The translations under genes were made by a program, and so were the position numbers. DNA of 64,000 nt. Origin: Patescibacteria group bacterium UBA6201. GTDB taxonomy: Bacteria > Patescibacteriota > Minisyncoccia > Phycocordibacterales > UBA918. Where the stretch lies: assembly GCA_002422025.1 (NCBI GenBank), contig DISV01000005.1, positions 290,948 through 354,947 on the forward strand. Reading direction: 5' to 3'. The notes below the pieces were generated by a model. It had not been told where the DNA came from and made no database searches. It saw only the letters and a list, made by a program, of their open reading frames with translations. Positions 649 through 63,174 of the stretch are shown piece after piece (the stretch's first letter is position 1; each line of letters starts with the position of its first letter).

Positions 649-2323
<1,675 letters not shown>

Positions 2324-2367
2324 CTATAATTGACCAAGTTCAGAATGAAGTTGGTCAATTATAGCTT

Positions 2368-3273
2368 TCAAGAACCCATTGCCTCAACACCAGCGGTTAT
2401 TTCAGACACCTCTGCAGTAATGGCTGCTTGACGAGCCTTGTTGTATTTAATAGTCAGACTCTTAATCAATTCCTTGGACTTGTCAGTAGCGTTTTTCATC
2501 GCCACCATACGAGCTGAGTGTTCAGATGCCTTACTCTCAAGTAGTGCGTGATAAATAATAATCGCAACCAATTGAGGAATAAGTGTATTAAGTACCTCTT
2601 CAGAAGATGGTTCAACTAAATAATCAGTAGGTGTTCCAACACTATTTTCTATCTCACTCCACTTTCCTGACTTTGGTTTGATACCATCCATCATTAATTT
2701 AATTTCATCAGGATTGAGTGGTAACACTGTGCGCAAAGTCGGCACTTGCTCGAAAGTTGAAAGAAAGTTCTGGTAGATGATAGATACCTTTTGATACTTT
2801 GGTGACTCGTAGAGGGACAGGACCTTGTCGGCCATGCTAGTAACCTCCACTAAAGAGACGCCGTCAGCAACGTTTATATAATCACCAACTAAAGTAACAT
2901 TCTCTCTCACTGCGTACTCAACCGCCTTGCGGCCAATAGCTAATATCTCGACACTGTCTCCCGCAGCAATAATTTCATCCACTCTTTTCTGCACGGCACT
3001 ATTAACACTACCCGCTAAACCTTTGTCACTGGTCACCATCACTAACAGGTGTTTGCCTTCTGGTCGAACTTCCGCAAAAGGATGCGAGAGTCCGTCCTGT
3101 GAAGCACTGAGGCGTGACAGGATATTAAGTGCCGAGCGCACATAAGGGCGACCGACAAAGGCACGCTCCTGGCTCTTACGCATCTTAACCGCAGACACAG
3201 CCTCCATAGCCTTAGTTACTTGACCAGTTTTCTTGGTGGCAATTATTTTGTTTTTAACTTGTTTTAAGGCCAT
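2368..3273 (-). CDS. atpG: F1 ATP synthase gamma subunit (start placed at MALKQVKNKI, internal to the longest ORF)
   Basis: N-terminus MALKQVKNKIIATKKTGQVTKAMEAVSAVKMRK matches the gamma consensus; lies between atpA and atpD. Confidence 0.9.
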   Translation of the reverse strand: MALKQVKNKIIATKKTGQVTKAMEAVSAVKMRKSQERAFVGRPYVRSALNILSRLSASQDGLSHPFAEVRPEGKHLLVMVTSDKGLAGSVNSAVQKRVDEIIAAGDSVEILAIGRKAVEYAVRENVTLVGDYINVADGVSLVEVTSMADKVLSLYESPKYQKVSIIYQNFLSTFEQVPTLRTVLPLNPDEIKLMMDGIKPKSGKWSEIENSVGTPTDYLVEPSSEEVLNTLIPQLVAIIIYHALLESKASEHSARMVAMKNATDKSKELIKSLTIKYNKARQAAITAEVSEITAGVEAMGS

Positions 3274-3312
3274 GATTGATTTAGTACACGATACACAGCA
3301 GTTGCTTTGCAA

Positions 3313-4878
3313 CTAAGCTGCGTAAAACTGTGCATGTGATTCTTTATAGTCTTTAATTGCCTTATTAAGCTGATCTACTACTTCGTCGGTTAATTCACGA
3401 CCCTTCTCAATAGTGATCATCGTTTCCTTTCGGTCACGAGTGACAAAATCAATAAAGCTTTTTTCTATTTCTCGCACCTTCTCTGGAGTGGTACCTTCGA
3501 AGAGTCCGTTATTAGCACCATAGAGTGACACCACCTGTTCATAAAATGGCATCGGGTTACTTTGATTTTGCTTTAAGAGTTCTACATACTTACGACCAGA
3601 ATCAATACGTGACTTAGTGTCCTCATCTAGGTCACTAGCAAACTGCATAAAGGCTTCTAGTTCACGAAACTGTGCAAGTTCCAAGCGAATCTTTCCTGAC
3701 ACTTTCTTCATCGCCTTAGTTTGCGCCGCACTACCCACACGTGACACAGAAATACCGACGTTGAGAGCAGGACGGATACCCTTGTTAAAAAGATCCCCCT
3801 CCAAGAAAATCTGTCCGTCAGTAATAGAAATAACGTTAGTTGGAATATATGCTGAGACGTCACCTTCCTGAGTCTCAATAATTGGCAAGGCAGTTAATGA
3901 ACCTCCTCCAAGTTCTTTTGAGAGTTTGGCACTGCGTTCCAAAAGACGAGAGTGAAGGTAGAAAATATCTCCCGGATAGGCTTCTCGACCTGGTGGACGG
4001 CGGAGCAAGAGTGACATCTGACGATAGGCATTGGCGTGCTTAGAAAGGTCATCGAATACTACGAGAACGTCGCGACCCTGCTGCATAAAGTATTCACCAA
4101 TAGCAGCTCCTGCAAAAGGTGCTAGGAAAAGTAACGGAGAGGCTTCAGAAGCAGAGGTTGCAACAATGATGCTGTATTCCATTGCGCCAGCTGCTTCAAG
4201 CTTGGCCTTAAGGCTCGCGGTCTTTGAGCGTTTTTGTCCAATCGCTACATAAATACAAATTGGACGTTTGTCCTTCGGTTCATATTTCTGGTTAATTATT
4301 GTGTCGATAGCAATAGTCGTCTTACCAGTACCACGATCCCCGATGATGAGTTCACGCTGTCCACGACCGATTGGAATCATCGAGTCAATGGCTTTAATAC
4401 CGGTATGTAGTGGCTCGTTAACCGCGGATCGATCCATTACTCCGTAAGCAACGCGTTCAATCGGCATTTCTTTTTCAGCTTTTATATCTCCAAGCCCATC
4501 AATAGCTACTCCGAGAGGATTAACCACGCGACCGATAATATCTTCGCTTACTGGCACTGATAAAAGACGCCCAGTTTCCTTTACAACCATACCCTCTCGC
4601 ACTCGGCTTGAGTCACCCAAGATTACCGCCTTTACCGAATCCTCCTCTAGGTTGAGTACCAAACCGTAGAGTTCCGAAGTATCTTCGAGCGTATCCTTGA
4701 GGCTTTTACCTCCAGAAACATCAAAGGCCACCATCTCCATCATCTTGGCTCCCAAGAGACCTTCGATTTCCACGATACCATCAGATACCGCCGATACTAA
4801 ACCGACTCTTTCGGTTTTGGTTTCTGTGGAGAGACCAGCTATTTCTTGTTTTAGTTTTTCTACGATATTGGTACTCAT
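3313..4878 (-). CDS. atpA: F1 ATP synthase alpha subunit
   Basis: GDRGTGKT Walker A and alpha-type C-terminal domain; operon context. Confidence 0.95.
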
Positions 4879-4910: not shown

Positions 4911-5282
4911 TTATTTGATTGAACGACGATACCACGTGAGCAGTTTAGTCTTATGACTATCGTCAATACGCTTCCAATCCTTGGTTAAAATGTGACCCCC
5001 AACAATACTTTTATCCACAATAACGCGAGTGTCTTGAGTCGCTTCAGTTTTTGTAAGAAAAGATTTGGCATCACTCTCCGAAGCTACCACTAGGACAGGG
5101 GCTCCGGTTACACGATCCTCTTCCAAACTACGCAAAAGCGAGCGCAGTATATTTGGATAAATCTTGCTATGGCCGTGCTTCTCAAGCGTTAATTTCAAAC
5201 CACTAAAAATTGACGCCGGAGTAGCTCCTTTCTTTATCAATGCTTTTGTAGCCAACAAATACTGTTTTTGTGTGCTATTCAT
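4911..5282 (-). CDS. atpH: F1 ATP synthase delta (OSCP) subunit, short form (~123 aa)
   Basis: C-terminal half matches the delta consensus (TRVIVDKSIVGGHILTKDWKRIDDSHKTKLL). The start is set at internal MNSTQKQ so the gene only slightly overlaps atpF; the N-terminal domain appears reduced. Confidence 0.7.
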   Translation of the reverse strand: MNSTQKQYLLATKALIKKGATPASIFSGLKLTLEKHGHSKIYPNILRSLLRSLEEDRVTGAPVLVVASESDAKSFLTKTEATQDTRVIVDKSIVGGHILTKDWKRIDDSHKTKLLTWYRRSIK

Positions 5283-5727
5283 TACTATGATTTTTAAGAA
5301 TTTCCTCTGCAGCCAAAACAGCAATTTTCGCCACCTCAGACTCACTCTTCTTTCGCGCTTCCTCTATCAAAGCCTCAGCGCGAGACTCAGCTTGCTGGAG
5401 CTTGGCAGCATTGGCAGCATCAGCCTCAGCTCTGAGTGCTTCAGCTTTTTCTTTAGCGTGTACTTCAGCACGCTTCTCAACCGCCTCAGCTTCTTGGTGA
5501 GCCAAAGAAAGTATTTCCTTCTTCTCACCCGCTGCTCCCTCTAGCGTTTTCTTGGCGTCTTCTGCGTCTTTCAAACCTTGCTTAATCTTACCTTCACGCT
5601 CATTAACCAATTTCAAGATTGGTTTGTACAGAAAATAAGTCAACAAAGAAGCCAATATTACGAAGTTAATTACCTGAATGGTAATTAGTCGTACGTCGAT
5701 GCCAAAGGCTTGAATAAGTGAGTCCAT
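5275..5727 (-). CDS. atpF: Fo ATP synthase b subunit
   Basis: Single N-terminal TM helix followed by a long Ala/Glu/Lys-rich coiled coil; operon position. Confidence 0.8.
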   Translation of the reverse strand: MDSLIQAFGIDVRLITIQVINFVILASLLTYFLYKPILKLVNEREGKIKQGLKDAEDAKKTLEGAAGEKKEILSLAHQEAEAVEKRAEVHAKEKAEALRAEADAANAAKLQQAESRAEALIEEARKKSESEVAKIAVLAAEEILKNHSNE

Positions 5728-5958
5728 TGTTAGTTTTTAGTTGTTAGTTGGCAGTTTTTAGTGTCAATCGAAGTGTTTTAAACTTAAGAAATTGGATGCA
5801 TATGTGCGGGTTGAAAAAATTTTTCGAGAGAGCGACCAAGAAAATAAAGAGTGTTCACACGACTATATTTTCTAAAGTACTCTCTGTGGTGCCTTAGATG
5901 ATCTAAAGTGACCGAAAAAAATTTTGAAACTCGTGCAAAAGCACCAATTTATAGAGTT

Positions 5959-6210
<252 letters not shown>

Positions 6211-6347
6211 TTAGTTTCTAGTAGTTAATGTCTGACACTATCAACTAATAACTAATAACTTACTACTGAATAATGTTCTGCTCACGGGCAGACAGGAACC
6301 AATCAAAATGACTGACTCCTGTCCGCCTGCGATTTCTGACCTCGTGG

Positions 6348-8115: not shown

Positions 8116-8270
8116 CAACTCTGGTGTTTACACACCAGGTCGCGACCTCGCCTCGCTTGCCTGCGGCATCGCTCCGGCCTTCGAATCCTCACGCAAGCAA
8201 AGCAGTTTGCTTGCTTCGGGTCCACATGAAAATCAAAAGCCACACTTGCGTGTGGCTAAGATTTTCTATG

Positions 8271-8343
8271 TGGACCCGAGAGGATTCGAACCCCCCGCCT
8301 CCTCAGTGCAAATGAGGCGCTCTACCAAATGAGCTACGGGCCC
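8271..8343 (-). tRNA. tRNA-Ala (anticodon UGC)
   Basis: The reverse complement reads GGGCCCGTAGCTCATTTGGTAGAGCGCCTCATTTGCACTGAGGAGGCGGGGGGTTCGAATCCTCTCGGGTCCA. It has a 7-bp acceptor stem with the G3:U70 alanine identity pair, D-stem GCTC/GAGC, an anticodon loop TTTGCAC (anticodon TGC), T-loop TTCGAAT and discriminator A. No CCA is encoded. Confidence 0.8.
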
Positions 8344-8351
8344 AGTTAAGT
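8332..8351 (-). repeat. Direct repeat copy 1 (tRNA-Ala 5' end plus 7 bp of 5' flank)
   Basis: agctacgggcccagttaagt occurs perfectly again at 8455-8474. Confidence 0.7.
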
Positions 8352-8389
8352 ACTGAACGAACTAGCTAGGCCACCCTGCTCAAGGTGTA

Positions 8390-8474
8390 GGGCTCATTTG
8401 CACTACGTGCAAATGATTCGAAAGCCTACTAGGCTTTCTCACCCCCACCACATAAGCTACGGGCCCAGTTAAGT
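8390..8474 (-). pseudogene. Decayed tRNA-Ala-derived fragments: inverted anticodon-arm hairpin and a second copy of the 5' end
   Basis: ctcatttgcac, the tRNA anticodon-arm sequence, occurs on the opposite strand inside a hairpin tcatttgcac-tac-gtgcaaatga (8395-8416). agctacgggcccagttaagt is repeated at 8455-8474. No complete cloverleaf can be folded. Confidence 0.45.
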
Positions 8475-11803: not shown

Positions 11804-12013
11804 CCCCTTTTGTTGAGACTCTCTAAAAGTAAAGTATATAAGTCTTCCTCTATCTCTTCAATGCTTTCCAGAACCAATCTCAAACAGAATGACTAGAAAT
11901 CACACCCAAAATCCGAGAGAGAAATGTGCGACACGAGGATTCATAGATACATCTGGAGACGAGTGGCAAGCATTTCGTAGCCGGATTTTTGGTGTTAGTT
12001 CAGTCAAGCCTAT

Positions 12014-12055
12014 CGTCTTTTTAAATGAGTCTACTTAGACTCATTTAAAAAGACG
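12014..12055. repeat. Perfect 19-bp-stem palindrome (hairpin) 17 bp downstream of the uvrA stop
   Basis: cgtctttttaaatgagtct-actt-agactcatttaaaaagacg. No flanking U-tract, so it is not a canonical intrinsic terminator. Confidence 0.5.
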
Positions 12056-12071
12056 ACTCTGGTTGGGGATT

Positions 12072-14705
12072 CTATTTGAGATGGGTTCTAAGATATTGAC
12101 CAGTATATGACTTCTCATTACGTGCAACTTCCTCAGGAGTACCTTTGGCAACCAAGTTTCCTCCTCCCTTGCCACCCTCCGGGCCAATATCCAGTATATA
12201 GTCAGCACTCTTCACTAAATCAAGGTTGTGTTCAATTACCATAACGGTATTACCACGGTTCACAAGCTCTTGAAGAATTTCTATCAACTTCTTTACATCT
12301 TCATAATGGAGTCCAATGGTAGGCTCATCGAGTAAGTAAATAGTTTTTTGGGTATGTGGACGATAAAGTTCAGAGGCAATCTTCACACGCTGTGCTTCTC
12401 CACCAGATAAAGTAGTAGCACTCTGTCCCAACTCCAAGTAACTAAGTCCAACATCAAGTAAAGGCTTTAGACGTTCAGCAATGGCAGGGATGTCATTGAA
12501 AAACATATAAGCTTCCTCAATGGTCATATGAAGCACATCATGAATACTTTTCTTTCTGTAAGTCACCTCGAGTGTCTCTTTAGTAAAGCGCTTTCCATCA
12601 CAAACATCACAAGTCACATACACGGTCGGCAAGAAGTGCATCTCAACCGCTATCTCACCATTACCTTGACAAGCTTCACAACGCCCACCTTTCACATTGA
12701 ATGAAAACCTCCCAGGCTTCCAACCACGAGCACGTGCTTCGCTAGTAGAAGCAAACATATCGCGAATGTGCGTGAAGGCTCCAGTATAAGTAGCTGGATT
12801 AGACCGTGGAGTACGACCAATCGGTGATTGATCAATTAAAACTGTGCGTCCTAGATATTCAGTACCATCAAATGAAGTACAGTTGTGAATCTTGGCTGAA
12901 CGATACTGACGCTCCAAGCGAGCCCTTAGATTCTTGTGGAGAATCTCATACATAAATGTCGACTTGCCACTTCCAGACACACCAGTTAAAGCGATTAGTC
13001 TGCCTAGTGGTATATCTACATTCATGTTCTTTATGTTAAAGGCCTTTCCTCCTCTAATCTTTATTGAACCTTTCTCACTCTGCCGACGTTCTGGAATCAC
13101 AATTTTTTTGTCACCGCGCAAATAATCAAGTGTAATAGAACCAGACTCATTAGTCTTGGCTTCCAAAAGTTTTGGAAGATAATCAGCCACAACGACGTTG
13201 CCACCATGCACGCCAGCGCCAGGACCGATATCAATCAAATAGTCAGAGGCGTAAATAGTATCCTCATCATGTTCTACTACAATGATGGTATTACCGAGGT
13301 CACGAAGCGACGTTAGAGTTTTAATCAAACGGTCGTTGTCACGCTGATGAAGTCCAATAGTTGGTTCATCAAGTACATAAAGTGCTCCCACTAGGCCAGA
13401 ACCAAGCTGTGAAGCCAATCGAATACGCTGTGCTTCACCACCAGAGAGAGTGTTGGCGCGACGGTTAAGTGTCAGATATTCAATACCGACGTTCTGCATA
13501 AATTCCAAGCGCTCGATAATCTCGCGCAAGGCGGGCCAAGCAATCTCTTGATGTTTCTTAGAGAGTTTAAGTTGCGCAATAAAATCACTAGCCTCCTTTA
13601 CTGTCATATTAGTAAAGTCAACAATGTTTTTTCCAAGTGACTTCCCTTCACCGCCGAGATAAACACGAAGTGCTTCTGGTCGGAGGCGCGCCCCTTTACA
13701 TACCGGACACTCGTCATTCTGAAAGATACCCACAACCCCTAACCCGTTACACTCAGGACACGCACCGTATGGTGAGTTAAAGGAGAACAAGCGTGGTTCT
13801 ACTTCAGGAAATGATGAGCCATCAATTGGACAAATAAACTTTGCTGAGAGTGTACGTTCACTACCATCTGGACTTTCTACCTTTACCAAACCGTTAGACT
13901 CTTTTAGAGCCATTTCCACAGCCTCACTCAAACGCTCCTTTGAACCTTTAGGATCATCGGTGAATTCAGAAACGTAGATAGAATCAACCAACACGTCAAT
14001 ATCGTGTCTAGCTGTCTTCTTTAACTCAATACGTTCACGCAACTGTTTAATTTGTCCATCGATTTTAACGGTTTCGTATCCTTTATTTAAAAGGTCATAA
14101 AGAAGCTGGTAGTACTCTCCTTTTCTACCTACTATCAAAGGAGCAAAGATTCCTACCTTGCCCTTAGATAGTTCAATACCAAGTACCTTTTCTTTCTTAG
14201 CTTCAGTAACCTCCTTATCTTCAATTGATTTAAGAACAATACCGAGAATTTCGTCTTGCGAAAGCTTTTCAATCGGCACGTCAGTATCTAAACAGTATGG
14301 CTGACCAACGCGTGCATAGAGAATACGCAGATAATCATAAATCTCTGTAATAGTCGCAACAGTCGAACGTGGGTTACGACTGGCTGACTTTTGGTCAATG
14401 GAAATAGCTGGAGAGAGACCACTAATCTCATCTACATCTGGCTTCTGGAGTTTATTTAAAAATTGTCGAGCATAGGCAGAGAGCGACTCAATGTATCGCC
14501 GCTGACCTTCGGCGAAGATAGTATCGAAAGCAAGTGACGACTTACCACTTCCAGAAGGTCCAGTAATGGCAATTAGTTTACCGCGAGGCATTTCAACGGT
14601 AATGTTCTTTAGATTATGGGTACGAGCGCCCCGCACCACGATTTTATTACCGCTTTCACCTTCGCCTTTTACATCCCACTTGACTTTAGTTTTTTTCTTT
14701 TCCAT
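12072..14705 (-). CDS. uvrA: Excinuclease ABC subunit A
   Basis: Two ABC ATPase modules ([12 protein letters not shown] and GVSGSGKST Walker A; LSGGEAQR signatures twice) and zinc-finger cysteines. Confidence 0.95.
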
Positions 14706-14791: not shown

Positions 14792-16828
14792 CTATTTCTT
14801 CTTAGCTTTTTTTGCGACTGTTGCTTCTAAAATATTTATCTCGTCGCGAATAATAGCGGCAGTTTCGAAGTCGAGAATGGCTACCGCTTCATTCATCTGA
14901 CTCCTCTTTTCTTTCAAGACTTTCTTGGGATTCTTCTTAAACAACTCCATATCGACAGTAAGCAAGGTATGTACGGTTTCTTCATGCACACTACGAAGCT
15001 GATCAGCAATACTTTTAATCTCCTTCTTGATAGTGGCCGGAGTGATGTTATGTTCTTTGTTGTATGCCAATTGACGATCGCGGCGACGGTTCGTTTCACC
15101 AATTGCATATTCTAATGACTTAGTGATGACGTCAGCATATAGAATTACGCGTCCATTTACGTTACGGGCAGCGCGACCAATGGTCTGAATGAGCGCCGTC
15201 TCACTACGAAGGAAACCTTCTTTGTCAGCATCGAGGATGGCTACCAACTCCACTTCCGGCAAGTCGAGTCCTTCACGAAGCAAGTTAACTCCGACCAAAC
15301 AATCAAACACACCCTTTCTAAAGTCGGTCAAGATCTCAATACGCTCCAAGGTCTCCACATCACTATGGATGTACTTGGTTTTCATCCCCTTTCCTTCTAG
15401 GAACTCAGCTAGGTCTTCTGCCATTTGTTTAGTGAGCACAGTGGTGAGTACACGAGCTCCAGAAGCAATCACTTTTTCTGCCTCCAGGATAAAGTCTTTC
15501 ACCTGTCCTGGATAATCACCCTTCTCCACGATTGGACGAACCTCAATCAAAGGGTCAACTAGTCCGGTTGGGCGAATGATTTGTTCAACCATTTTAAAAG
15601 AAGTGGTCTCTGCCTTTTCATACTCATACTTACCTGGAGTGGCTGAAGTATAGATACGCTGTCCAACCCGCTTCTCAAATTCATCAAATTTTAGTGGGCG
15701 ATTATCCTTGGCACTTGGCAGACGGAAACCGTAATCAACCAGAGTTTCTTTGCGTGCTCGATCACCAGCATACATTCCCCCAATCTGTGGAATAGTGACA
15801 TGTGACTCATCAATCACTGTCAAAAAGTCAGCCGTACCATCAGCCTTATGTGGAAAGTAGTCGAGCAAACTATATGGTGGCTCACCGGCGGAGCGTCCGT
15901 CGAAGTGGCGTGAATAGTTTTCAATACCATTACAATAGCCAATCTCCCTAATCATCGCTAAGTCGTACTCAGTACGACGCTTGATTCGCTCACTCTCAAG
16001 TAGCTTTCCTTCCTTCTTAAACTTCTTGAGTTGTTCATCGAGCTCTTGTTTAATATCCACAATGGCGCGGGCACGCTCAGCCTCAGGTGTCACGAAGTGC
16101 TTAGCTGGGAACAAGTAGAAGGTATCCGGCTCTTCGATAATGGCGCGTGTAGTAGCATCAATCTTAGTGATAGCCGAAACAGTATCTCCTACGAAGTTAA
16201 GTCGAAAAATAACCTTCTCATTAGTTGGCATTATCTCCACAGTATTCCCAATCGCTCGGAAAGCGCCGGGGGTAAGATCAGCCGGTGTTCGTTCGAAGTA
16301 CATAGATACCAAAAGCCGAAGCATCTCTTTACGGTTGATTGTAAATCCTTTTTCTATTTTCTTATGGACTTTTTCGTACTCAATTGGAGAACCAAGACCG
16401 TAGATACAAGACACCGAAGCGACAATAATTACGTCACTGCGGGTCAAAAGAGCTTGAGTTGAGGCGTGGCGTAGACGATCAATTTCTTTGTTAATTTGTG
16501 CCTCCTTCTCGATGAAAGTATCAGAGACTGGCATATAGGCCTCCGGCTGGTAGTAGTCGTAGTATGAAACGAAGTAGTGAACTGCGTTATTAGGAAAGAA
16601 GTCTCGGTACTCCTGCGCCAACTGAGCTGCCAGAGTCTTATTGTGGGCAATCACCAAGGTCGGCTTCTGGATAGCATTAATGACATTAGCAACAGTGAAG
16701 GTCTTACCAGAGCCAGTCACACCTAAAAGCGTCTGATGCTCGGCACCAGCTTTAAGTCCCTCCAAAAGCTTTTTTATAGCCTCAGGCTGGTCTCCATCTG
16801 GAGTCTTATCTGTTGCTAACTTAAACAT
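14792..16828 (-). CDS. uvrB: Excinuclease ABC subunit B (start placed at MFKLATDK)
   Basis: Helicase motifs (GVTGSGKTFT, DESH) and a UvrB interaction domain. The N-terminus FKL..D..P.GDQP.AI matches the UvrB consensus. Confidence 0.95.
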   Translation of the reverse strand: MFKLATDKTPDGDQPEAIKKLLEGLKAGAEHQTLLGVTGSGKTFTVANVINAIQKPTLVIAHNKTLAAQLAQEYRDFFPNNAVHYFVSYYDYYQPEAYMPVSDTFIEKEAQINKEIDRLRHASTQALLTRSDVIIVASVSCIYGLGSPIEYEKVHKKIEKGFTINRKEMLRLLVSMYFERTPADLTPGAFRAIGNTVEIMPTNEKVIFRLNFVGDTVSAITKIDATTRAIIEEPDTFYLFPAKHFVTPEAERARAIVDIKQELDEQLKKFKKEGKLLESERIKRRTEYDLAMIREIGYCNGIENYSRHFDGRSAGEPPYSLLDYFPHKADGTADFLTVIDESHVTIPQIGGMYAGDRARKETLVDYGFRLPSAKDNRPLKFDEFEKRVGQRIYTSATPGKYEYEKAETTSFKMVEQIIRPTGLVDPLIEVRPIVEKGDYPGQVKDFILEAEKVIASGARVLTTVLTKQMAEDLAEFLEGKGMKTKYIHSDVETLERIEILTDFRKGVFDCLVGVNLLREGLDLPEVELVAILDADKEGFLRSETALIQTIGRAARNVNGRVILYADVITKSLEYAIGETNRRRDRQLAYNKEHNITPATIKKEIKSIADQLRSVHEETVHTLLTVDMELFKKNPKKVLKEKRSQMNEAVAILDFETAAIIRDEINILEATVAKKAKKK

Positions 16829-25970: not shown

Positions 25971-26279
25971 CTAACACAAGTGTCGAAGCAAGCCCGTTAT
26001 CACGCCCCATAAGGTGACATCTTCTTCCAAGTTACTCCCTACGGAGTGTCTCTGGACCTTAAGTTCCCCGTCTTCTGCGACCACCAGAATACTGCCACGC
26101 TTAGGACTAAGTGAGCGATCTACTACTAAGGTATCTCCAGCTTTTATATCCGTACCCTCAGGACCATCCGACTCCATCTTCATAAAAAAAGTAGAGCTAG
26201 GGTGCTTGACCATCAAATCGTGGATGTCGAGTGGTCTTTCTTCCCCACTATTTTTCATTACATCAAAAACTTTTCCCAT
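25971..26279 (-). CDS. Stand-alone S24 peptidase-like domain protein (UmuD/LexA C-terminal-like, no HTH)
   Basis: MKMESDGPEGTDIKAGDTLVVDRSLSPKRGSILVVAEDGELKVQRH aligns with the LexA/UmuD GMSM...DGDLL.V...G.IVVA..DGE.TVKRL core. A Ser and a Lys sit in the expected positions. At 102 aa it is UmuD'-sized. Confidence 0.6.
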   Translation of the reverse strand: MGKVFDVMKNSGEERPLDIHDLMVKHPSSTFFMKMESDGPEGTDIKAGDTLVVDRSLSPKRGSILVVAEDGELKVQRHSVGSNLEEDVTLWGVITGLLRHLC

Positions 26280-26333
26280 ACTTTATTCTAGTTTAAAGTT
26301 TTTAGACTCAGAGTGAACTTCACTAAATTTTTT

Positions 26334-26447
26334 AAATCGAATGCAGTTCTGATGGTTGGAGAAAATTTTATGAGGGAGACGTATACGACATACGATGACT
26401 GAATAAAATTTTTGAAACCACAGAAATGCATCGATTTTAGAAGTTTT
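26334..26447. repeat. Copy A of a ~105-115 bp intergenic element with terminal inverted repeats (MITE-like or structured regulatory RNA)
   Basis: About 85% identical to 54873-54985. Its ends form an inverted repeat (aaatcgaatgcagttctg ... cagaaatgcatcgattt). It starts right at the stop of the CAP-domain gene and lies immediately upstream of the UmuD-like gene. Confidence 0.6.
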
Positions 26448-27492
26448 AGGCTATGAGAGCGCCAGAAGAGGCAAGCAAATGAACCTGAAACAACACAATC
26501 ATCATCAAAAGCATAACTGTCGCATAAGCAATCTGTATCGGATGATGCCTTCTCCACTCAATAATGATGGAAGCTAGTAAAGCCCCAATTATAAACAAAC
26601 CGAGAATAGAATAAATGATCTGGAGCAACAGGCGCGGAGAGGTCAAAATACGCCAAAAGGTTGAAGGCCTTGAAGTGATATTGTCAGTCGGTGCAGAAAT
26701 TATCTCTTCAACATTCTCTACTGCCGTGGCAGCAAAACTTTCATAGACCACGGTTCCATCACTGGTTACACTCGCATTTATCTCGCTGTCTTCTGTAACA
26801 CCGGCGACCTGTGCAGGGATAACAGGCTCTGTTTCCTCTACAATTACTTGCTCAGGTTCAGTCAGCACAAGTTCAGTTTCTGTAATTTCAGGAACCACCT
26901 CAGACACTGTTGCTGGTGCTGCTACCGCAACCGCTGGAGTACCAAACATCTGTACAACAAAAACTGTGTCAAAACCTTCGTATTCACCCTTTGCTGTTCC
27001 GATACCAATCTCAGTATACTTGGTGTTCATAATATTCTCGCGGTGTGTGGGAGACTTAAGCCAAGCATCAACCACTACAGTTGAGTCAGTGAAGTGTACA
27101 GCCAAGTTTTCACCAGCGTGAATGTAGGAATAACCAGCTTCGGTAAACCAATGCCACGGAGAGACACCAGCGGGACTCCAGTGGGCAAAGTAGCCATTCT
27201 TCGCCATATCTTCGGCCTTAAGGCGTGCTGCCTCGTCGAGAACTGGGTTTCTAACTAGTGGAGACTTACCCTCTTCAACACGAGCAGAGTTGGTGGCGTC
27301 GGTCACAACAGCTGGCAAAATTGTAGAGACCAACCATTCAGAACTGACCCAAAGAATTGATTGCAGATTAGCAATGGAAAAGGAGATGAGGACCAAGCCC
27401 ATCATACCAACCAAAGCCGCCCGTTGAAGGACGTGCGGCTTAAAGTCGTTCTCAGCATTCGGAACAAAAAACTTTTTCAGCCAGTTTTTCAC
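26446..27492 (-). CDS. CAP/SCP/PR1-like domain protein with N-terminal TM anchor and C-terminal TM helix
   Basis: CAP domain motifs (GYFAHWSPAG, HAGENLA, VVDAWLKSPTHRENIMNTKYTEIGIG). Confidence 0.75.
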   Translation of the reverse strand: MKNWLKKFFVPNAENDFKPHVLQRAALVGMMGLVLISFSIANLQSILWVSSEWLVSTILPAVVTDATNSARVEEGKSPLVRNPVLDEAARLKAEDMAKNGYFAHWSPAGVSPWHWFTEAGYSYIHAGENLAVHFTDSTVVVDAWLKSPTHRENIMNTKYTEIGIGTAKGEYEGFDTVFVVQMFGTPAVAVAAPATVSEVVPEITETELVLTEPEQVIVEETEPVIPAQVAGVTEDSEINASVTSDGTVVYESFAATAVENVEEIISAPTDNITSRPSTFWRILTSPRLLLQIIYSILGLFIIGALLASIIIEWRRHHPIQIAYATVMLLMMIVLFQVHLLASSGALIA

Positions 27493-50205: not shown

Positions 50206-51138
50206 CTATTTACTCATGTCCCTTAATATCCTGATTCTTTCCGCTGCAGGTGGGTGAGTTTGGAAAAGATTAGAAATTTTCTGCCCAAGCGTACGTTTTT
50301 CAGAACCAAATGGATCGGCAATGAAAAGGTGTGCAGTAGCGTTATTAGCTCGCTTCATCGGCTGACTATAATGACTAATTTTTTCGAGCGCAGAAGCTAG
50401 ACCCTCCGGATAGCGAGTAAGTAAAGCGCCAGAGGCGTCAGCTAAATATTCACGTTTCCTAGAGATGGCTAATTGAATCATCTGCGCAGCAATCGGAGCT
50501 AATATAATGCCAACGATACCAAGTACCAAGAAGATTACTCCTGCCTTACTATCGCGATCATCACCTCCACCCCACAGCATTGAGCGCATAAAGAGGTCAG
50601 CAATAATGGCAATGAATCCTGCAAGGACAACAGCGACAGTTGAGACCAACATATCGCGGTTTCCGACATGAGAAAGCTCGTGTGCCATAACACCCTCGAG
50701 TTCAGTACGATCTAAAACCGCTAAAAGGCCAGTTGTAGCGGCCACTACAGCGTTCTCAGGATTGCGACCAGTAGCAAAAGCATTCGGAGCCGAATCATTC
50801 ACGACATACACTTTAGGCATTGGTAGACCAGCGGTAATAGAGAGGTTCTCCACGATCTGAATCAGGTCTCGGTATTCACGTGGGTCAGCCGGTTTCGCTC
50901 CCGTCATTGCAACAACAAGCTTATCACTCCACCAGTAACTGCCGACATTCATAAACAGCGCAAATGCGATGGCAACATACATTATTGAAGGATTACTGTA
51001 GTACCAGTTAAGGAAGTACCCAATAGCGATAACCAAGGCAAAGAACATCGCCATCAAAAACCAGGTCTTACGAATATTTTCAGATTGATGTGTATACAGG
51101 GTCATAATTAGTTGCTTAGTACACAGTACGCAGTACAC
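50206..51138 (-). CDS. htpX: Zinc metalloprotease HtpX (M48 family)
   Basis: HELSHVGNRD zinc-binding motif and 4 TM helices; the size is typical. Confidence 0.9.
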   Translation of the reverse strand: MYCVLCTKQLIMTLYTHQSENIRKTWFLMAMFFALVIAIGYFLNWYYSNPSIMYVAIAFALFMNVGSYWWSDKLVVAMTGAKPADPREYRDLIQIVENLSITAGLPMPKVYVVNDSAPNAFATGRNPENAVVAATTGLLAVLDRTELEGVMAHELSHVGNRDMLVSTVAVVLAGFIAIIADLFMRSMLWGGGDDRDSKAGVIFLVLGIVGIILAPIAAQMIQLAISRKREYLADASGALLTRYPEGLASALEKISHYSQPMKRANNATAHLFIADPFGSEKRTLGQKISNLFQTHPPAAERIRILRDMSK

Positions 51139-51141
51139 AGC
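51118..51141. repeat. Left inverted repeat flanking the four-helix-bundle gene (heptamer-built: agtacac/agtacgc units)
   Basis: agtacacagtacgcagtacacagcac. Its reverse complement matches 51546-51569 at about 22 of 24 positions. Confidence 0.55.
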
Positions 51142-51153
51142 ACGTCATTCTTA

Positions 51154-51507
51154 CTATACTGAGAGACTAGTTATCAGCTTATTAAGCATTTTCCGTACTA
51201 CAGTTGTCTGCTCCTGTATTCTATCAAATTCTGCGCCTCCTACTAAACTTAACTTTTTAGAGATAATAAGCTGCGTTTCTAATTCAGCACTGGACCCATA
51301 CGAAATACGAAGGAAGCGAACAAAATCTCCACTACTCTTCCTGGCATGACCCTCAGCAATATTCGATGGTATTGATACAGCACTTCTTCTCATTTGGTTA
51401 ACTAGACCGAATTTTTCACTATCAGGAAAATCGGCAGTTACTGTATATATCAATGTAACTAATTCAATACTTCTCTGCCAAACTAGAAGGTCTTGATAAA
51501 TTTCCAT
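51154..51507 (-). CDS. Four-helix-bundle protein of the rRNA intervening-sequence (IVS)-associated family (start placed at MEIYQDLLVWQ)
   Basis: MEIYQDLLVWQRSIELVTLIYTVTADFPDSEKFGLVNQMRRSAVSIPSNIAEGHARKSSGDFVRFLRISYGSSAELETQL matches the TIGR02436-type four-helix-bundle family. Confidence 0.7.
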   Translation of the reverse strand: MEIYQDLLVWQRSIELVTLIYTVTADFPDSEKFGLVNQMRRSAVSIPSNIAEGHARKSSGDFVRFLRISYGSSAELETQLIISKKLSLVGGAEFDRIQEQTTVVRKMLNKLITSLSV

Positions 51508-51545
51508 AAATTTTGTTACGTACTGCGTCCCAACGTGCTGCGTAC

Positions 51546-51569
51546 TGTGTACTGCGTCCTGTGTACTAA
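51546..51569. repeat. Right inverted repeat flanking the four-helix-bundle gene (tandem gtactgc/gtactgt heptamers)
   Basis: The block ttacgtactgcgtcccaacgtgctgcgtactgtgtactgcgtcctgtgtact contains 4-5 heptamer units. It pairs with the left repeat. Confidence 0.55.
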
Positions 51570-54540: not shown

Positions 54541-54825
54541 TTACTTTGAACCCTCACCTTCACTATTCATCTTTAACGGACTAATCACAGGCTCATCAGA
54601 AAGCCCTAAGTCTCTAATCTCTTGGCCAGTTTTTTGCTCAATCTCCTGAATTTGTTTAGTCAGAGCACGAGCAAATGTCTTCGAGGCAGATAACGGTAAA
54701 GCAAACCTAAATTCTTCTTCGCCAGAACCAAAAGAAATGACATGCAGACCATTCAGTATGCGACAGTGAAAACTCTCTACCAAAACTTTCATCGGTCCCT
54801 TTCCTGGTCTAATAGGCTCATCCAT
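54541..54825 (-). CDS. Small hypothetical protein (94 aa)
   Basis: ORF directly downstream of repeat copy B; no homology recognised. Confidence 0.4.
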   Translation of the reverse strand: MDEPIRPGKGPMKVLVESFHCRILNGLHVISFGSGEEEFRFALPLSASKTFARALTKQIQEIEQKTGQEIRDLGLSDEPVISPLKMNSEGEGSK

Positions 54826-54872: not shown

Positions 54873-54985
54873 TAAAACTTTAAAATCGAATGCAGTTCTA
54901 CGAGTCGGAAAAAATTTTACGAAGGAGGCGTATAACGAAATACGATGACTGAGGAAAATTTTTGAAACCACAGAAATGCGTCGAT
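54873..54985. repeat. Copy B of the ~105-115 bp element with terminal inverted repeats
   Basis: About 85% identical to 26334-26447. It sits 17 bp downstream of the groEL stop and about 50 bp upstream of the 94-aa gene. Confidence 0.6.
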
Positions 54986-54995
54986 TTTGGAGGTT

Positions 54996-56636
54996 TTAGT
55001 ACATTCCCCCCATATCTGGCATCATCGCTGGAGACTTAGAATCTTCAGGCTCATCAGCTACAGCGGCTTCGGTGGTCAACAATATTGCAGCTGCCGACAC
55101 CGCATGCTGCACACAAGCTCTCTCTACCTTAACTGGATCAATGATACCGGCCTTAATCATATCGTCGACAAACTCACCCTTGAAAGCGTCATAACCTGCA
55201 TTACCTTCAGAGCTCTTCACCTTATCAACAACCACCGCACCATCTATCTTGCCAGTATTGTCAGCAATCTGTCGTAGAGGTACCTCAAGGGCCTTCAATA
55301 CTATATTATAGCCAACCAGCTCCTCACGTCCTAGATCTTTCTTACCCAAAAGATTCTTCTCGACAACAGCAGCCGCGCGAGTGAGTGAAGTCCCTCCACC
55401 TGGAACAATTCCTTCCTCAATGGCGGCTTTAGTAGCGTTGACAGCGTCTTCTATCTTCAATTTTAGATACTTCATCTCCATCTCTGTTGCAGCACCAACA
55501 CGCAACACAGCCACTCCACCCCCAAGCTTAGCGATTCGTTCCTCTAACTTTTCCTTGTCATATTTAGAAGTAGTGTTCTCTAGCTGGCTCTTCAAGGCAG
55601 ACACTCGATTCTCAATTTCAGTCTTTTCGCCTGCGCCTCCAACAATAACAGTCTTGTCCTTTGTAGACATCACGCGGCTAGCCTTACCTAATTGAGAAAT
55701 TTCAGTATTTTCCAACTTCAATCCAAGTTCTTCAGTAATAACCTGACCACCCACCATAACGGCGATGTCATTTAATACCTCCTTCTTTCGGTCACCAAAG
55801 CCAGGAGCCTTGATAGCTAACACTGAGAATCCACCCTTTAATTTATTGATGACAAAAGTGGTGAGCGCCTCGCCGTCAATATCATCAGCGATAATAACGA
55901 GTTCCTTACGACCAGTTTGAGCGATTTTCTCAAGCAGTGGAAGAATCTCCTTTACTGAAGACACCTTTGCGTCCGTAATAAGAATTTGTGCATCCTTGTA
56001 CTCAGCCTCCATTCGTTCACCATTCGTTACCATATAAGGAGATACGTAACCCTTATCGAATTCCATACCTTCAGTAAACTCTGTTTCAATACCGAAAGAT
56101 TGACCTTCTTCCACAGTCACGACACCATCCTTACCGACCTTCTCTATAGTTTCAGCAATTTTTTCACCAATTTCAACATTCTCGGCAGAGATGGTAGCAA
56201 CTTGCTTGATTTCATCAGTCGACTTTATCTTAGTCGACATCGAGCGTAAGGCCTCCACCACATCTACAGCAGCATGCTCCATTCCGGTCCGCACAGCCAT
56301 TGAGTTTAGACCCATTGAAGTTTGACGTAGACCTTCATTGACCAAAGCTTGCATCAACACGGTCGCAGTAGTCGTACCATCTCCAGCTAGTTCATTGGTC
56401 TTGTTTGCTACCTCTTTCACCATCTCAGCACCCATATTCTCAAACTTGTCCTTAAGGGTGATTTCCTTAGCGATAGAAACGCCATCGTTGGTAATGGTTG
56501 GTCCTCCATAACCCTTATCGAGAATTACATTCCGTCCTCGCGGACCAAGAGTAACCTTTACAGCATTAGCTACAGTATCAACACCTTTTTTCAACTTCTT
56601 CTTTACTTCTTCATCAAAAATTACTTGTTTGGCCAT
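54996..56636 (-). CDS. groL: Chaperonin GroEL (60 kDa)
   Basis: [41 protein letters not shown]..., the ATP-binding motifs, and a C-terminal GGM-type tail (MMPDMGGMY). Confidence 0.95.
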
Positions 56637-62409: not shown

Positions 62410-63096
62410 CTATAATTCATAAATAACATCCTTTCTTTCCACAACTACTGGCCAGTCCAATCGCTTTGCATGATTAAACAATGCCAGATTTGGATTAAAA
62501 CAAATTGGACGCTCTACACTTTCTAGGAGAGGAATGTCTCCCTCAGTATCACCAACACCAATCGACCTTTTACTAGTTAAAGACACATCCTCTAAAACTC
62601 TAGCAATGATATTTGCCTTATTGGCAATCAAATGTTCATCCGTCACTTCACCTGTAAAGCGGTCTTGTGGACCCAGTTCATACATCCGACCATAGACCTT
62701 ATCGAAACCGTACTGACGACAGAAGTCATCAAGAATCGTTTTAGGAGATTGTGAGATAGCTACCAGAAAATAGCCCTCGGCTTTTAAGTCTTGAATCAAA
62801 TCACGAGTATAGCGATAGACTCGCTTATTTCTTTCAGCAACTACTTCACGACCAATGTCAGCTAGGTCGCCATAAAAAACACCTTTCAGGTTTTGCCGAA
62901 ATACTTTAACAACAGCATTTATATAACTGTCGTATTCTCCTTCCCTATCTTGCCAACGACGTTTCAATTCAGCAAACTCCTCTTCAGCTCCTTTAGGAAA
63001 CACTCCCGCGTCTAACAACCTATCTACCAACTCTATTAAAAGACTGGACCGAAAAAGGGTCCCATCGATATCAAAAAAAGCCACTGGTTTCTGCAT
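62410..63096 (-). CDS. HAD-superfamily hydrolase (HAD-IB/SerB-like)
   Basis: Motif I FDIDGTL, motif II and motif III GDTEGD. Confidence 0.8.
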   Translation of the reverse strand: MQKPVAFFDIDGTLFRSSLLIELVDRLLDAGVFPKGAEEEFAELKRRWQDREGEYDSYINAVVKVFRQNLKGVFYGDLADIGREVVAERNKRVYRYTRDLIQDLKAEGYFLVAISQSPKTILDDFCRQYGFDKVYGRMYELGPQDRFTGEVTDEHLIANKANIIARVLEDVSLTSKRSIGVGDTEGDIPLLESVERPICFNPNLALFNHAKRLDWPVVVERKDVIYEL

Positions 63097-63103
63097 GCCT
63101 ATA

Positions 63104-63174
63104 TTTTACCCCCACACCAATATTTTCATAGTGCCTTACACGGGAATGAATTCCCAATGAAAATATAGGTGTGG
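63104..63174. repeat. Nested inverted-repeat structure between HAD hydrolase gene and the GC-rich ORF
   Basis: cccacaccaatattttcat ... atgaaaatataggtgtggg are 19-bp arms with one mismatch. They enclose gggaat-ga-attccc. Confidence 0.45.

What the first reader, a model, noticed from the sequence alone, without database searches (positions are those of the whole stretch)
26334..26447. A ~105-bp element with terminal inverted repeats in two copies, each just upstream of a small gene (copy A)
nt 26334-26447 and nt 54873-54985 are about 85% identical over ~110 bp. Example aligned blocks are ttggagaaaattttatgagggagacgtatacgacatacgatgactgaataaaatttttgaaaccacagaaatgcatcgatttt and tcggaaaaaattttacgaaggaggcgtataacgaaatacgatgactgaggaaaatttttgaaaccacagaaatgcgtcgatttt. 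Each copy is bounded by an imperfect inverted repeat (AAATCGAATGCAGTTCTG ... CAGAAATGC(A/G)TCGATTT). Each begins within about 0-17 bp of the stop codon of an upstream minus-strand gene (the CAP-domain gene; groEL). Each ends about 50 bp before the start of a small minus-strand gene (the UmuD-like S24 protein; a 94-aa hypothetical). The element could be a MITE-like mobile element, a shared promoter/operator cassette creating a small regulon, or a conserved structured 5' leader RNA. The spurious ORFs the track calls inside both copies share a short peptide (TIRTAFDLKNL/TRRTAFDFKVL), which simply reflects the nucleotide repeat.
Basis: seen in the sequence. Interest (0 to 1): 0.65.

Follow-up and report, generated by a model that had tools for sequence, protein, structure and literature searches.

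The report
Small palindromic mobile repeat in Kaiserbacteria
The two look-alike 120-base stretches are copies of a small hairpin-forming "jumping" DNA element without a gene of its own. It has inserted exactly into the stop codons of genes in an uncultivated Kaiserbacteria genome, which makes it a fairly ordinary kind of element in an unusual host, and not a shared gene switch.

Summary
Copy A (26326-26446) and copy B (54875-54996) are 86% identical over 117 nt, and each is one long imperfect hairpin. I found a third, diverged copy C (5781-5959) between atpE and atpF. It has an orthologue (C') and a distant relative (D) in a related Kaiserbacteria genome.

A and B are insertions. Five related lineages have the same gene pairs (CAP/UmuD-like, groEL/94-aa gene) only 4-48 nt apart, with no element. 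A sixth lineage has an unrelated 181-nt spacer. Removing A plus one TA restores "GCC TAG TGA...", collinear with the relatives' "GCT TAG TGA...". So the element entered the TA of the stop codon, duplicated TA, and its own first base rebuilt a TAA stop.

Stems keep pairing through compensatory changes. Copy C is more conserved than neutral sites. No promoter, terminator, Rfam family, plasmid or phage match was found.

Best reading: a non-autonomous MITE-like element with TA duplication (IS630/Correia style), co-transcribed inside operons as an mRNA hairpin.

One feature is unexplained. The strand antisense to all flanking genes folds much better: G.T 17 against A.C 5, purine-purine 43 against pyrimidine-pyrimidine 3, and conserved tandem G.A pairs. 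The shared promoter/regulon and 5' leader ideas are not supported.

The parts
26326..26446 (+). Copy A of the palindromic element (121 nt). The strand given is the better-folding, purine-rich strand, which is antisense to the flanking genes.
   Evidence: Covariance model R1 scores 147 bits. Fold energy is -45 kcal/mol on + against -32.7 on -. Homology with B stops at the flanking TA on both sides.
26447..26448 (.). TA at the junction of copy A nearest the CAP gene. Together with the element's terminal base (26446) it forms the present TAA stop of the CAP-domain gene.
   Evidence: ORF 26446-27492 (-) ends here. Sequence.
26323..26325 (-). Second TA copy plus G. This is the displaced original TAG stop codon of the CAP gene, followed by TGAAG...
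   Evidence: With the element and one TA removed, the window reads GCC TAG TGAAGTTCAC. This is collinear with the empty sites L065 (GCT TAG TGACGGACAC) and L047 (GCC TAA TGACGGACAC).
54875..54996 (+). Copy B of the element (122 nt), flanked by TA at 54873-54874 and 54997-54998. The latter TA plus base 54996 forms the groEL TAA stop.
   Evidence: R1 scores 131 bits. Fold energy is -34.0 on + against -26.8 on -. groEL ORF is 54996-56636. Sequence.
5781..5959 (+). Copy C, a diverged family member between atpE and atpF, flanked by TA at 5779-5780 and 5960-5961. The atpE TAA stop is 5959-5961.
   Evidence: Found by the repeat finder family D1. R1 scores 54.9 bits, E = 8e-10. Fold energy over 5765-5975 is -63.4 on + against -48.4 on -. 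An orthologue C' in L028/L025 scores 141.9 bits.
5833..5891 (+). 59-nt extra hairpin nested in the apical part of copy C. It is absent from the orthologue C'.
   Evidence: Alignment of the window spacer against L028. The 59-mer is found only at this locus among all fetched DNA.
26446..27492 (-). CAP-domain gene upstream of copy A.
   Evidence: ORF list. Pfam PF00188 in the gene table.
25971..26279 (-). UmuD-like S24 gene (102 aa) downstream of copy A.
   Evidence: PF00717 (weak). Homologues.
54996..56636 (-). groEL, upstream of copy B.
54541..54825 (-). 94-aa hypothetical gene downstream of copy B.
5959..6186 (-). atpE (ATP synthase c subunit), upstream of copy C.
   Evidence: PF00137.
5275..5727 (-). 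atpF (ATP synthase b subunit), downstream of copy C.
   Evidence: PF00430.

Best explanation
A, B and C are copies of a roughly 120-nt non-autonomous palindromic transposable element (MITE-like) in a Candidatus Kaiserbacteria (CPR/Paceibacterota) genome.

The unit runs from AAAC... to ...GTTT. Its terminal inverted repeats continue inward into an almost full-length hairpin. It is bounded by TA on both sides.

It integrates at a TA, and in every case seen this is the TA of the stop codon of the upstream gene inside a tightly packed operon. The TA is duplicated. The element's first base (A) rebuilds a TAA stop, and the original stop codon is pushed to the far side of the element.

The element has no coding capacity. 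It must therefore be moved in trans, most plausibly by an IS630/Tc1-mariner-type DDE transposase encoded elsewhere. This step is inferred; no transposase was seen.

Once inserted, the element is transcribed as part of the polycistronic mRNA, where it forms a stable hairpin directly after the stop codon. All copies lie in the orientation that gives the mRNA the weaker version of the hairpin, with pyrimidine-rich loops and no U-tract. The likely reason is that the opposite orientation would terminate transcription or expose Shine-Dalgarno-like GGAGG motifs inside operons (inferred).

Most copies are probably near-neutral passengers. The atpE-atpF copy has been kept under purifying selection, plausibly as an intercistronic mRNA-stabilising or processing hairpin (inferred).

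The element is not a promoter or operator shared by the two small downstream genes.
For: Repeat family:
- A and B are 86% identical.
- Model R1 finds exactly three copies in the window, at 147, 131 and 55 bits, with nothing else above 21 bits.
- It also finds C' (142 bits) and D (29.6 bits, E = 0.002) in a related genome.

Insertions rather than conserved regulators:
- The groEL to 94-aa-gene spacer is 170 nt here. It is 20 nt in L041/L042/L043 and L060 (GroEL 96-97% identical) and 37 nt by the gene caller's start in L045/L046 (90% identical); an in-frame ATG lies only 4 nt after the stop in L045.
- The CAP to UmuD-like spacer is 166 nt here. It is 48 nt in L047-L052, 45 nt in L065 and 15 nt in L053.
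- D fills the atpD-atpC spacer in L028 (131 nt), while the window has 22 nt there.

Insertion site and TA duplication:
- Homology between A and B ends exactly at TA on both sides.
- Deleting A plus one TA gives GCC TAG TGAAG..., collinear with the empty sites GCT TAG TGACG... (L065) and GCC TAA TGACG... (L047).
- In A, B, C and C' the distal TA is followed by A or G, so it reads as a former TAA or TAG stop.

Structure:
- 96.5% of cells pair.
- 8 of 36 pairs show double changes.
- 0 of 500 shuffles reach the observed covariation score.

Constraint on C:
- The hairpin is about 86% identical to C' (84- and 55-nt blastn segments).
- By comparison, the atp coding sequences are 81-82% identical and atpE third codon positions 59%.

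Other points:
- Not a promoter or terminator cassette: no consensus sites in or next to any copy.
- All insertion sites lie between genes that are 4-48 nt apart in relatives, so they are inside operons.
- Size, terminal inverted repeats, AT-richness, intergenic location, flanking direct repeat and hairpin-forming transcript match the published definition of prokaryotic MITEs (PMC10969869; PMC3184786).
Against: - No cognate transposase or full-length parent element was found in about 74 kb of this genome or about 200 kb of relatives. The Pfam tables show none.
- Copy number is low: 3 in 74 kb here, and C' plus the distant relative D in the related genome.
- A 2-bp duplication is weak evidence taken alone. 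It is directly reconstructed only for copy A.
- A plain double-stranded-DNA MITE does not predict the strong strand asymmetry of the hairpin. On the strand antisense to the genes, G.T outnumbers A.C 17 to 5 and purine-purine outnumbers pyrimidine-pyrimidine 43 to 3. Tandem G.A pairs are conserved there, and the fold is 6-20 kcal/mol more stable. This runs against the local GC skew.
- That all three independent insertions in this genome hit the stop-codon TA, rather than other TAs in the spacers, is also not explained by a simple TA target.
Confidence: 0.7

Rival explanations
1. The element is a gene for a small structured RNA of about 120-130 nt, transcribed from the window + strand (antisense to the flanking genes). 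The RNA gene itself has spread. Its hairpin with tandem G.A pairs would be a protein-binding module.
For: - In all five copies the + strand folds better by 6-20 kcal/mol.
- A strand-neutral alignment of the two arms gives G.T 17 against A.C 5, and purine-purine 43 against pyrimidine-pyrimidine 3, on +.
- A motif next to the apical hairpin (G.U, A.G, G.A) is conserved in A, B, C, C' and D on + only (sequences).
- On +, the hairpin is followed by UUUU...UUUU.
- The asymmetry is opposite to the local GC skew, so mutation bias does not explain it.
Against: - No sigma-70-like promoter was found upstream on +.
- The sequence upstream of the hairpin on + is not conserved between A and B.
- No Rfam family matches.
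- A and B are absent from close relatives, so any RNA is dispensable.
- An RNA gene would not need to land exactly on a stop-codon TA with TA duplication.
Confidence: 0.13
2. The element is a shared promoter/operator or 5' leader cassette. It would place the UmuD-like gene and the 94-aa gene under common control, for example by DNA damage or heat.
For: Both A and B lie about 50 nt upstream of a small gene. One neighbour is groEL and the other is an S24/UmuD-like gene, which suggested stress control.
Against: - Orthologues of both downstream genes in five related lineages lack the element and sit 4-48 nt behind the upstream gene.
- No promoter-like sites were found.
- The third copy lies between atpE and atpF, and D lies between atpD and atpC.
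- The element is anchored to the upstream stop codon, not to the downstream start. The sequence between the element and the start codon is unrelated in A and B.
Confidence: 0.04
3. The element is a single-strand DNA recombination or transposition site. It would resemble an integron attC site or an IS200/IS605-type palindrome-associated element, whose folded strand is recognised by a tyrosine recombinase or HUH enzyme.
For: - The structure is strand-specific, with G.T pairs and conserved bulged bases.
- It lies immediately after or overlapping a stop codon, with the folding strand complementary to the coding strand, as attC sites do.
- The outer helix reads ...AAC/GTT....
- All copies have a uniform orientation.
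Against: - The ends do not fit the attC core sites: CTAAAAC/GTTTTAG against RYYYAAC/GTTRRRY.
- The flanking genes are core genes (groEL, atp operon) that stay adjacent in relatives, so they are not cassettes.
- No integrase, HUH or TnpA gene lies within +/-10 kb.
- The better-folding strand is the leading-strand template by GC skew, not the lagging-strand template used by IS200/IS605.
- TA duplication is not a feature of either system.
Confidence: 0.06
4. The copies are native transcription terminators or attenuators of the upstream genes that merely resemble each other.
For: Each is a hairpin directly after a stop codon. Other lineage-specific hairpins also follow stop codons in this clade.
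Against: - 86% identity over 117 nt between unrelated loci cannot be convergence.
- The stem base is AU-rich and no U-tract follows on the sense strand. The terminator scan finds nothing.
- C and D lie inside the atp operon, where termination would be harmful.
Confidence: 0.03

Closest known systems
Correia elements (NEMIS) of Neisseria, and other TA-duplicating MITEs mobilised by IS630/Tc1-mariner-type transposases
   Same: - About 100-150 nt long, AT-rich and non-coding.
- Terminal inverted repeats.
- Insertion at TA with TA duplication. This is shown here for copy A. That Correia and IS630 duplicate TA is from my own knowledge.
- Frequently co-transcribed with neighbouring genes as a long RNA hairpin (PMC10969869).
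   Different: - No sequence similarity.
- Copy number is very low.
- The whole unit is one hairpin, rather than terminal repeats around a core.
- Every insertion seen uses the TA of a stop codon.
- The hairpin shows a strong strand asymmetry.
- No IS630-like partner was found.
- The host is a CPR bacterium with a tiny genome.
ERIC/IRU and RUP elements (enterobacterial and pneumococcal palindromic intergenic repeats)
   Same: - Imperfect palindromes of about 107-127 nt in transcribed intergenic regions, often at the 3' ends of genes.
- The RNA hairpin can change the stability of the upstream mRNA in an orientation-dependent way (PMC10969869; PMC2267715 and PMC3049150 listed).
   Different: Unrelated sequence, different phylum, tens to hundreds of copies in those hosts. 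Insertion within a stop codon is not described as their rule.
REP/BIME elements
   Same: Extragenic palindromes placed after stop codons inside operons. They can stabilise upstream mRNA segments (own knowledge; PMC3733652 listed).
   Different: REPs are 20-40 nt, GC-rich and carry a GTAG or CGTC head, and they are linked to RAYT transposases. This element is 120 nt, AT-rich, has no such tag and has a TA duplication.
Integron attC sites
   Same: An imperfect palindrome of similar length that starts at or in the stop codon of the upstream ORF. The functional fold lies on the strand complementary to the coding strand, with conserved unpaired bases.
   Different: The core-site consensus is not met, there is no integrase, the neighbours are core genes and not cassettes, and TA is duplicated.

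Membership tests
Prokaryotic MITE | Short (<500 bp), non-coding, AT-rich (PMC10969869) | tested here: met
   121-122 nt (179 nt for C). GC 0.32-0.37. Only spurious ORFs are present.
Prokaryotic MITE | Terminal inverted repeats | tested here: met
   Ends read AAACYTNNWAAATYGR... / ...YCRATTTWNNARGTTT. The arms pair over nearly the full length.
Prokaryotic MITE | Flanking direct repeat from target-site duplication | tested here: met
   TA flanks A, B, C and C'. For A, the empty sites in L065 and L047 confirm that one TA is extra. The duplication is only 2 bp and is directly reconstructed at one site only. A longer 9-bp repeat seen around B (TACTAAAAC) was rejected.
Prokaryotic MITE | Multiple dispersed copies with presence/absence polymorphism between related genomes | tested here: met
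   Three copies in the window. A and B are absent in relatives, and D is absent here. Whole-genome copy number is not known.
Prokaryotic MITE | Related autonomous IS or transposase with matching terminal repeats | tested here: inconclusive
   None in the about 74 kb of this genome or in the relatives' loci (Pfam tables; motif scan). The rest of the genome could not be searched.
Correia / ERIC / RUP (specific named families) | Sequence similarity to the family consensus | not tested
Indirect negative results only: no Rfam match, no blastn match in plasmids or phages, and no genuine family member among the 17 hits in the scan of species-representative genomes. Host phylum and termini differ.
REP / BIME | 20-40 nt GC-rich palindrome with a GTAG or CGTC head | tested here: not met
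   120 nt, 32-37% GC, termini AAAC/GTTT.
Integron attC | Core sites R'' = RYYYAAC and R' = GTTRRRY at the ends | tested here: not met
   The ends read (C/T)TAAAAC and GTTTTA(G/A). Only AAC/GTT fits.
Integron attC | Array of cassettes next to an intI integrase | tested here: not met
   The neighbours are groEL, atp genes, and CAP and UmuD-like genes, which stay adjacent in relatives. There is no integrase within +/-10 kb.
Intrinsic (Rho-independent) terminator | GC-rich stem followed directly by a U-tract on the transcribed strand | tested here: not met
   The terminator scan finds nothing at any copy. The stem base is AAAUCGA/UCGAUUU, followed by A-rich sequence on the sense strand.
Sigma-70 promoter cassette | -35 and -10 hexamers at 16-18 nt spacing inside or next to the element | tested here: not met
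   0 sites at A and B. The one site at C lies outside the element, inside atpF.
Any Rfam RNA family | Covariance-model score at or above the gathering threshold | tested here: not met
   Only two tRNAs are found in the window. The best sub-threshold hits are plant miRNA hairpins at 16-20 bits, against thresholds of 87-94.

The most novel reading that the evidence does not exclude
The element may not be a passive DNA transposon remnant. It may be a mobile module whose active form is the folded strand antisense to the host genes. That form would be either a small structured RNA with two tandem G.A motifs that recruits a protein, or a single-stranded DNA hairpin recognised by an unknown recombinase. 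It would be targeted specifically to stop codons of operon genes in CPR bacteria. This would be a strand-specific, stop-codon-seeking mobile hairpin of a kind not described before.
Probability: 0.15. Interest if true: 0.7.

Novelty: new member of a known kind. Interest (0 to 1): 0.4.

Why it matters
CPR/Patescibacteria genomes are tiny and tightly packed, and my library searches found no paper describing MITEs in CPR bacteria. This element shows recent transposition in a Kaiserbacteria lineage. The elements slip in at the one place that costs nothing: the TA of a stop codon, which the element itself rebuilds.

It also gives a concrete case where one copy (atpE-atpF) has been retained under selection. 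That copy is a candidate intercistronic RNA element for ATP synthase subunit stoichiometry.

For annotation, it explains the spurious ORFs and the unusually long spacers at these loci. It also removes a tempting but wrong inference of an SOS or heat regulon.

The unexplained strand asymmetry is the only part that could lead to something new.

Tried and rejected
1. Wider distribution by DNA pattern. I scanned for TGACYGAN{1,3}AAAAWTTTTGAAAC. Viral contigs gave 0 hits. Species-representative genomes gave 17 hits, all single chance matches in unrelated phyla; two were checked by eye and all by blastn and the covariance model. Metagenomes gave 18 hits, of which only L025/L028 (C') are real. A second viral scan with the terminal repeat gave 4 chance hits.

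2. Finding further copies through spurious ORFs. A search with the 45-aa translation of copy A found no candidate.

3. blastn of copy A against plasmids and phages: no match.

4. Rfam at permissive E-value on A and C: only noise.

5. Extending the genome. The 10 kb beyond the window's end holds no copy. The look-up at the other end returned only a 2.4-kb contig.

6. A longer target duplication. The 9-nt direct repeat TACTAAAAC around B and CTAAAACTT/CTAAAAACTT around A looked promising. I rejected it for three reasons. The 23-28 nt it would add to the element are unrelated between A and B. CTAAAAC-like words are common in the A/C-rich leaders here. And the TA model reproduces the relatives' empty site exactly.

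7. The 181-nt groEL spacer of L044. It is not a family member: no significant fold (z = -0.7), and no covariance-model or blastn hit. Its ends faintly resemble the family termini.

8. A sliding RNAfold scan for other long hairpins. It found other structured regions but no new family member.

9. A regex scan for paired terminal repeats 0.7-2 kb apart, which would indicate a parent IS: nothing.

10. Mutation bias as the cause of the strand asymmetry. I rejected this because the local GC skew, and the expected excess of C-to-T changes on the sense/leading strand, both predict the opposite sign.

Full report
**Observation**

The two stretches exist as described. blastn aligns 26334-26449 with 54883-54999 at 86.3% identity over 117 nt, E = 2e-22 (MAFFT). 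A 25-mer is shared exactly, with none expected in shuffles.

Each copy is one long imperfect hairpin. For A the dinucleotide-shuffle z-scores are -7.7 and -8.1 on the two strands. For B they are -3.7 and -3.6.

All flanking genes are on the minus strand: the CAP-domain gene 26446-27492, the UmuD-like S24 gene 25971-26279, groEL 54996-56636 and a 94-aa gene 54541-54825. The spurious ORFs and their shared peptide are present.

**Organism**

The best GroEL hits are Candidatus Kaiserbacteria/Paceibacterota MAGs, at 97% identity to Kaiserbacteria CG10_big_fil_rev_8_21_14_0_10_44_10. The window belongs to a population seen in several metagenomes.

**More copies**

The repeat finder pointed to a third, diverged copy. 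It lies between atpE (5959-6186) and atpF (5275-5727), inside the atp operon. It has the same architecture plus a 59-nt extra hairpin at 5833-5891 nested near the apex.

A pattern built from the blocks conserved in all three copies was scanned against three collections:
- Viral contigs: nothing.
- Species-representative genomes: only chance hits.
- Metagenomes: two contigs (L025/L028) carry the orthologous atpE-atpF element C', without the 59-nt insert.

A covariance model built from A, B, C (insert removed) and C' gave these results:
- In the window with filters off, it finds only A (147 bits), B (131) and C (55). Nothing else exceeds 21 bits.
- In L028 it finds a distant member D (29.6 bits, E = 0.002) between atpD and atpC.
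- It finds no copy in the next 10 kb of this genome, nor in about 260 kb of other fetched loci, mostly relatives of this genome.

**The copies are insertions**

| Site | This window | Relatives |
|---|---|---|
| groEL to 94-aa gene | 170 nt, with B | 20 nt in L041/L042/L043 and L060 (GroEL 96-97% identical); 37 nt by the gene caller's start in L045/L046 (90%), where an in-frame ATG lies 4 nt after the stop in L045; unrelated, unstructured 181-nt spacer in L044 |
| CAP to UmuD-like gene | 166 nt, with A | 48 nt in L047-L052; 45 nt in L065; 15 nt in L053 |
| atpD to atpC | 22 nt, no element | 131 nt in L028, occupied by D |

So three of four sites are polymorphic between lineages whose coding DNA is about 81% identical. 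The atpE-atpF site is shared.

**Boundaries and target**

Similarity between A and B stops at a TA on each side. In gene-sense orientation the unit reads TA|AAAC...(G/A)(T/A)TT|TA. The proximal TA plus the element's first A forms the present TAA stop of the upstream gene in A, B, C and C'. The distal TA is followed by G or A, so it reads as a former TAG or TAA stop.

For copy A this can be checked. Removing the element and one TA gives ...ATA GCC TAG TGAAGTTCAC.... This aligns collinearly with the empty sites ...ATA GCT TAG TGACGGACAC... (L065) and ...ATT GCC TAA TGACGGACAC... (L047).

The element therefore entered the TA of the stop codon, duplicated TA and regenerated a stop. By my own knowledge, TA duplication at NTAN is the signature of IS630/Tc1-mariner-type transposition and of Correia elements. 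The target of A is CTAG. I first considered a 9-nt direct repeat around B and rejected it (see the list of things tried and rejected).

**Structure**

RNAalifold on the four aligned copies predicts five stacked helices. Counting on that structure gives:
- 96.5% of cells paired.
- 8 of 36 pairs with changes on both sides.
- 0 of 500 shuffles reaching the observed covariation score or percentage paired.
- 27-56% paired in the slid controls.

With only two deep lineages (A/B and C/C') this is modest, but it is consistent. D keeps the same plan with different outer stems.

**Constraint**

Between the window and L028 the identities are:
- atpB, atpE and atpF coding sequences: 81-82%.
- atpE third codon positions: 59%.
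- The C/C' hairpin: about 86% (84- and 55-nt blastn segments).
- The spacer beyond the hairpin: visibly poorer.

So the atp copy is under purifying selection.

**Not a promoter, terminator or known RNA**

The consensus scans find no sigma-70-like promoter and no intrinsic terminator in or next to any copy on either strand. Rfam finds nothing at gathering thresholds and only noise at permissive thresholds. There is no match in plasmids or phages. No transposase, integrase or HUH gene lies within 10 kb of A or B.

**Unexplained strand asymmetry**

In all five copies the strand antisense to the flanking genes folds better.

| Copy | Window + orientation (kcal/mol) | Gene-sense orientation (kcal/mol) |
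|---|---|---|
| A | -45.0 | -32.7 |
| B | -34.0 | -26.8 |
| C | -54.0 | -48.4 |
| C' | -55.1 | -35.5 |
| D | -56.5 | -39.2 |

(All.)

A strand-neutral alignment of each 5' arm with the reverse complement of its 3' arm gives, on the + orientation:
- 221 Watson-Crick positions.
- 17 G.T against 5 A.C.
- 43 purine-purine against 3 pyrimidine-pyrimidine.

On the RNAfold structures the count is 30 G.U pairs against 2 A.C single mismatches.

Next to the apical hairpin, the series G.U, A.G, G.A is conserved in all five copies. It occurs twice in A, B, C and C'. This means GAG on the 5' arm facing UGA on the 3' arm, on that strand only (sequences).

The window's + strand as a whole has negative GC skew. 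So the known replication and transcription mutation biases predict the opposite sign. Many of the G.U positions differ between copies, so simple inheritance from one founder does not explain the pattern either.

All four independent insertions (A, B, C/C', D) have the same orientation relative to their operons.

My preferred reading has two parts. First, the element is intrinsically asymmetric. Second, only insertions that put the weaker version into the mRNA survive inside operons; that version has pyrimidine-rich loops and no U-tract. On this view the other orientation would expose AAGGAGG-type motifs and a hairpin followed by U runs. This is inference. It leaves open why the element is asymmetric in the first place. 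For that reason I keep an antisense RNA gene and a single-strand DNA substrate as rivals.

**Comparison with known elements**

Size, AT-richness, terminal inverted repeats, flanking direct repeat, intergenic location, hairpin-forming transcript and variable presence match the published definition of prokaryotic MITEs (PMC10969869; PMC3184786).

The closest analogues are Correia elements (TA duplication, co-transcribed hairpins cleaved by RNase III) and ERIC elements (3'-end insertions that alter mRNA stability).

It fails the tests for:
- REP elements: wrong size, wrong GC content, no GTAG or CGTC tag.
- attC sites: core consensus not met, no integrase, no cassettes.
- Intrinsic terminators.

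My library searches found no paper describing MITEs in CPR bacteria.

**Verdict**

The regulon and leader ideas are not.

This is a new member of a known kind of element, in an unusual host. It has two features worth a follow-up: exclusive use of stop-codon TAs, and a strong strand-specific structure. Interest is moderate.

Noticed in passing
window 2314-2374: A near-perfect 29-bp-stem hairpin (93% complementary, one mismatch; TTTTTGAAAGCTATAATTGACCAAGTTCA / TGAAGTTGGTCAATTATAGCTTTCAAGAA). Its arm contains the TGA stop of atpG (2368-2370). The spacer to atpD is 86 nt here but only 29 nt in the relative L028, so this is another lineage-specific palindromic insertion at a stop codon in the atp operon.
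   Followed up: partly
window 51116-51569: A 454-bp cassette bounded by 29-nt inverted repeats (93% complementary). It carries a 140-aa gene of the '23S rRNA intervening sequence protein' family (PF05635) and starts directly after the TAG stop of the DUF2207 gene. Relatives L041, L044, L045 and L060 have no such gene at this position. It looks like a second kind of small mobile or IVS-like insertion.
   Followed up: partly
window 63050-63400; L044 3480-3670; L045 3280-3830: A very strongly folding stretch (-144 kcal/mol over 350 nt) that partly overlaps called ORFs in the window (62410-63096; 63239-63619). It carries a shared motif GGGGGCA.CG..G.GATGCCCCCAC...AGTTTCTGCTA in three lineages. In L045 the stretch lies in a gap of about 545 nt (3282-3828) with no called gene. 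This is probably an unannotated structured RNA. Rfam finds nothing at gathering thresholds.
   Followed up: no
window 8140-8474: Nested, very stable hairpins (-84 to -89 kcal/mol over 160 nt) abut the tRNA at 8271-8343 (-). A 28-nt near-copy of the tRNA 5' part lies at 8447-8474. One public assembly also breaks here (contig end at about window 8225). This may be an integration scar or a repeat.
   Followed up: no
L041 about 12010-12130 and 15885-16000: The related Kaiserbacteria genome carries two copies of a different structured intergenic unit of about 110 nt (AACCWGGCGTTTT(T)GCTAGCTA...GTCGGCC.CCGCCGAC...GTCGCATTC...GCGACATTGCTAGTAA). Each is preceded by a separate perfect GC-rich hairpin directly after a stop codon.
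   Followed up: no
window 6187-6347 (atpB-atpE spacer): A hairpin-containing core (GACAGGAGTCA...TGATTGGTTCCTGTCTGCCCGTGAGCAGAACATTATTCAGTAGTAA) is about 95% conserved between the window and L028. That is far above the 59% seen at third codon positions, so it is likely a functional leader of atpE.
   Followed up: no
L044 11645-11785: In a lineage with 94% GroEL identity, the groEL to 94-aa-gene spacer is 181 nt of unrelated sequence without a significant fold. Its ends (ATCGATGAG... / ...CTCATCTTGAAAGTTTTAG) faintly resemble the termini of the family. It may be a decayed or replaced copy at the same site as B.
   Followed up: partly
window 26308-26320; L047 9953-9980; L065 1551-1575; L053 9990-10000: Each lineage has its own small palindrome right after the CAP gene stop: AGTGAAGTTCACT, TGACGGAC...GTCCATCA, TGACGGA...TCCGTCA and CTTGCAGCAAG. 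The position is conserved but the sequence is not.
   Followed up: no
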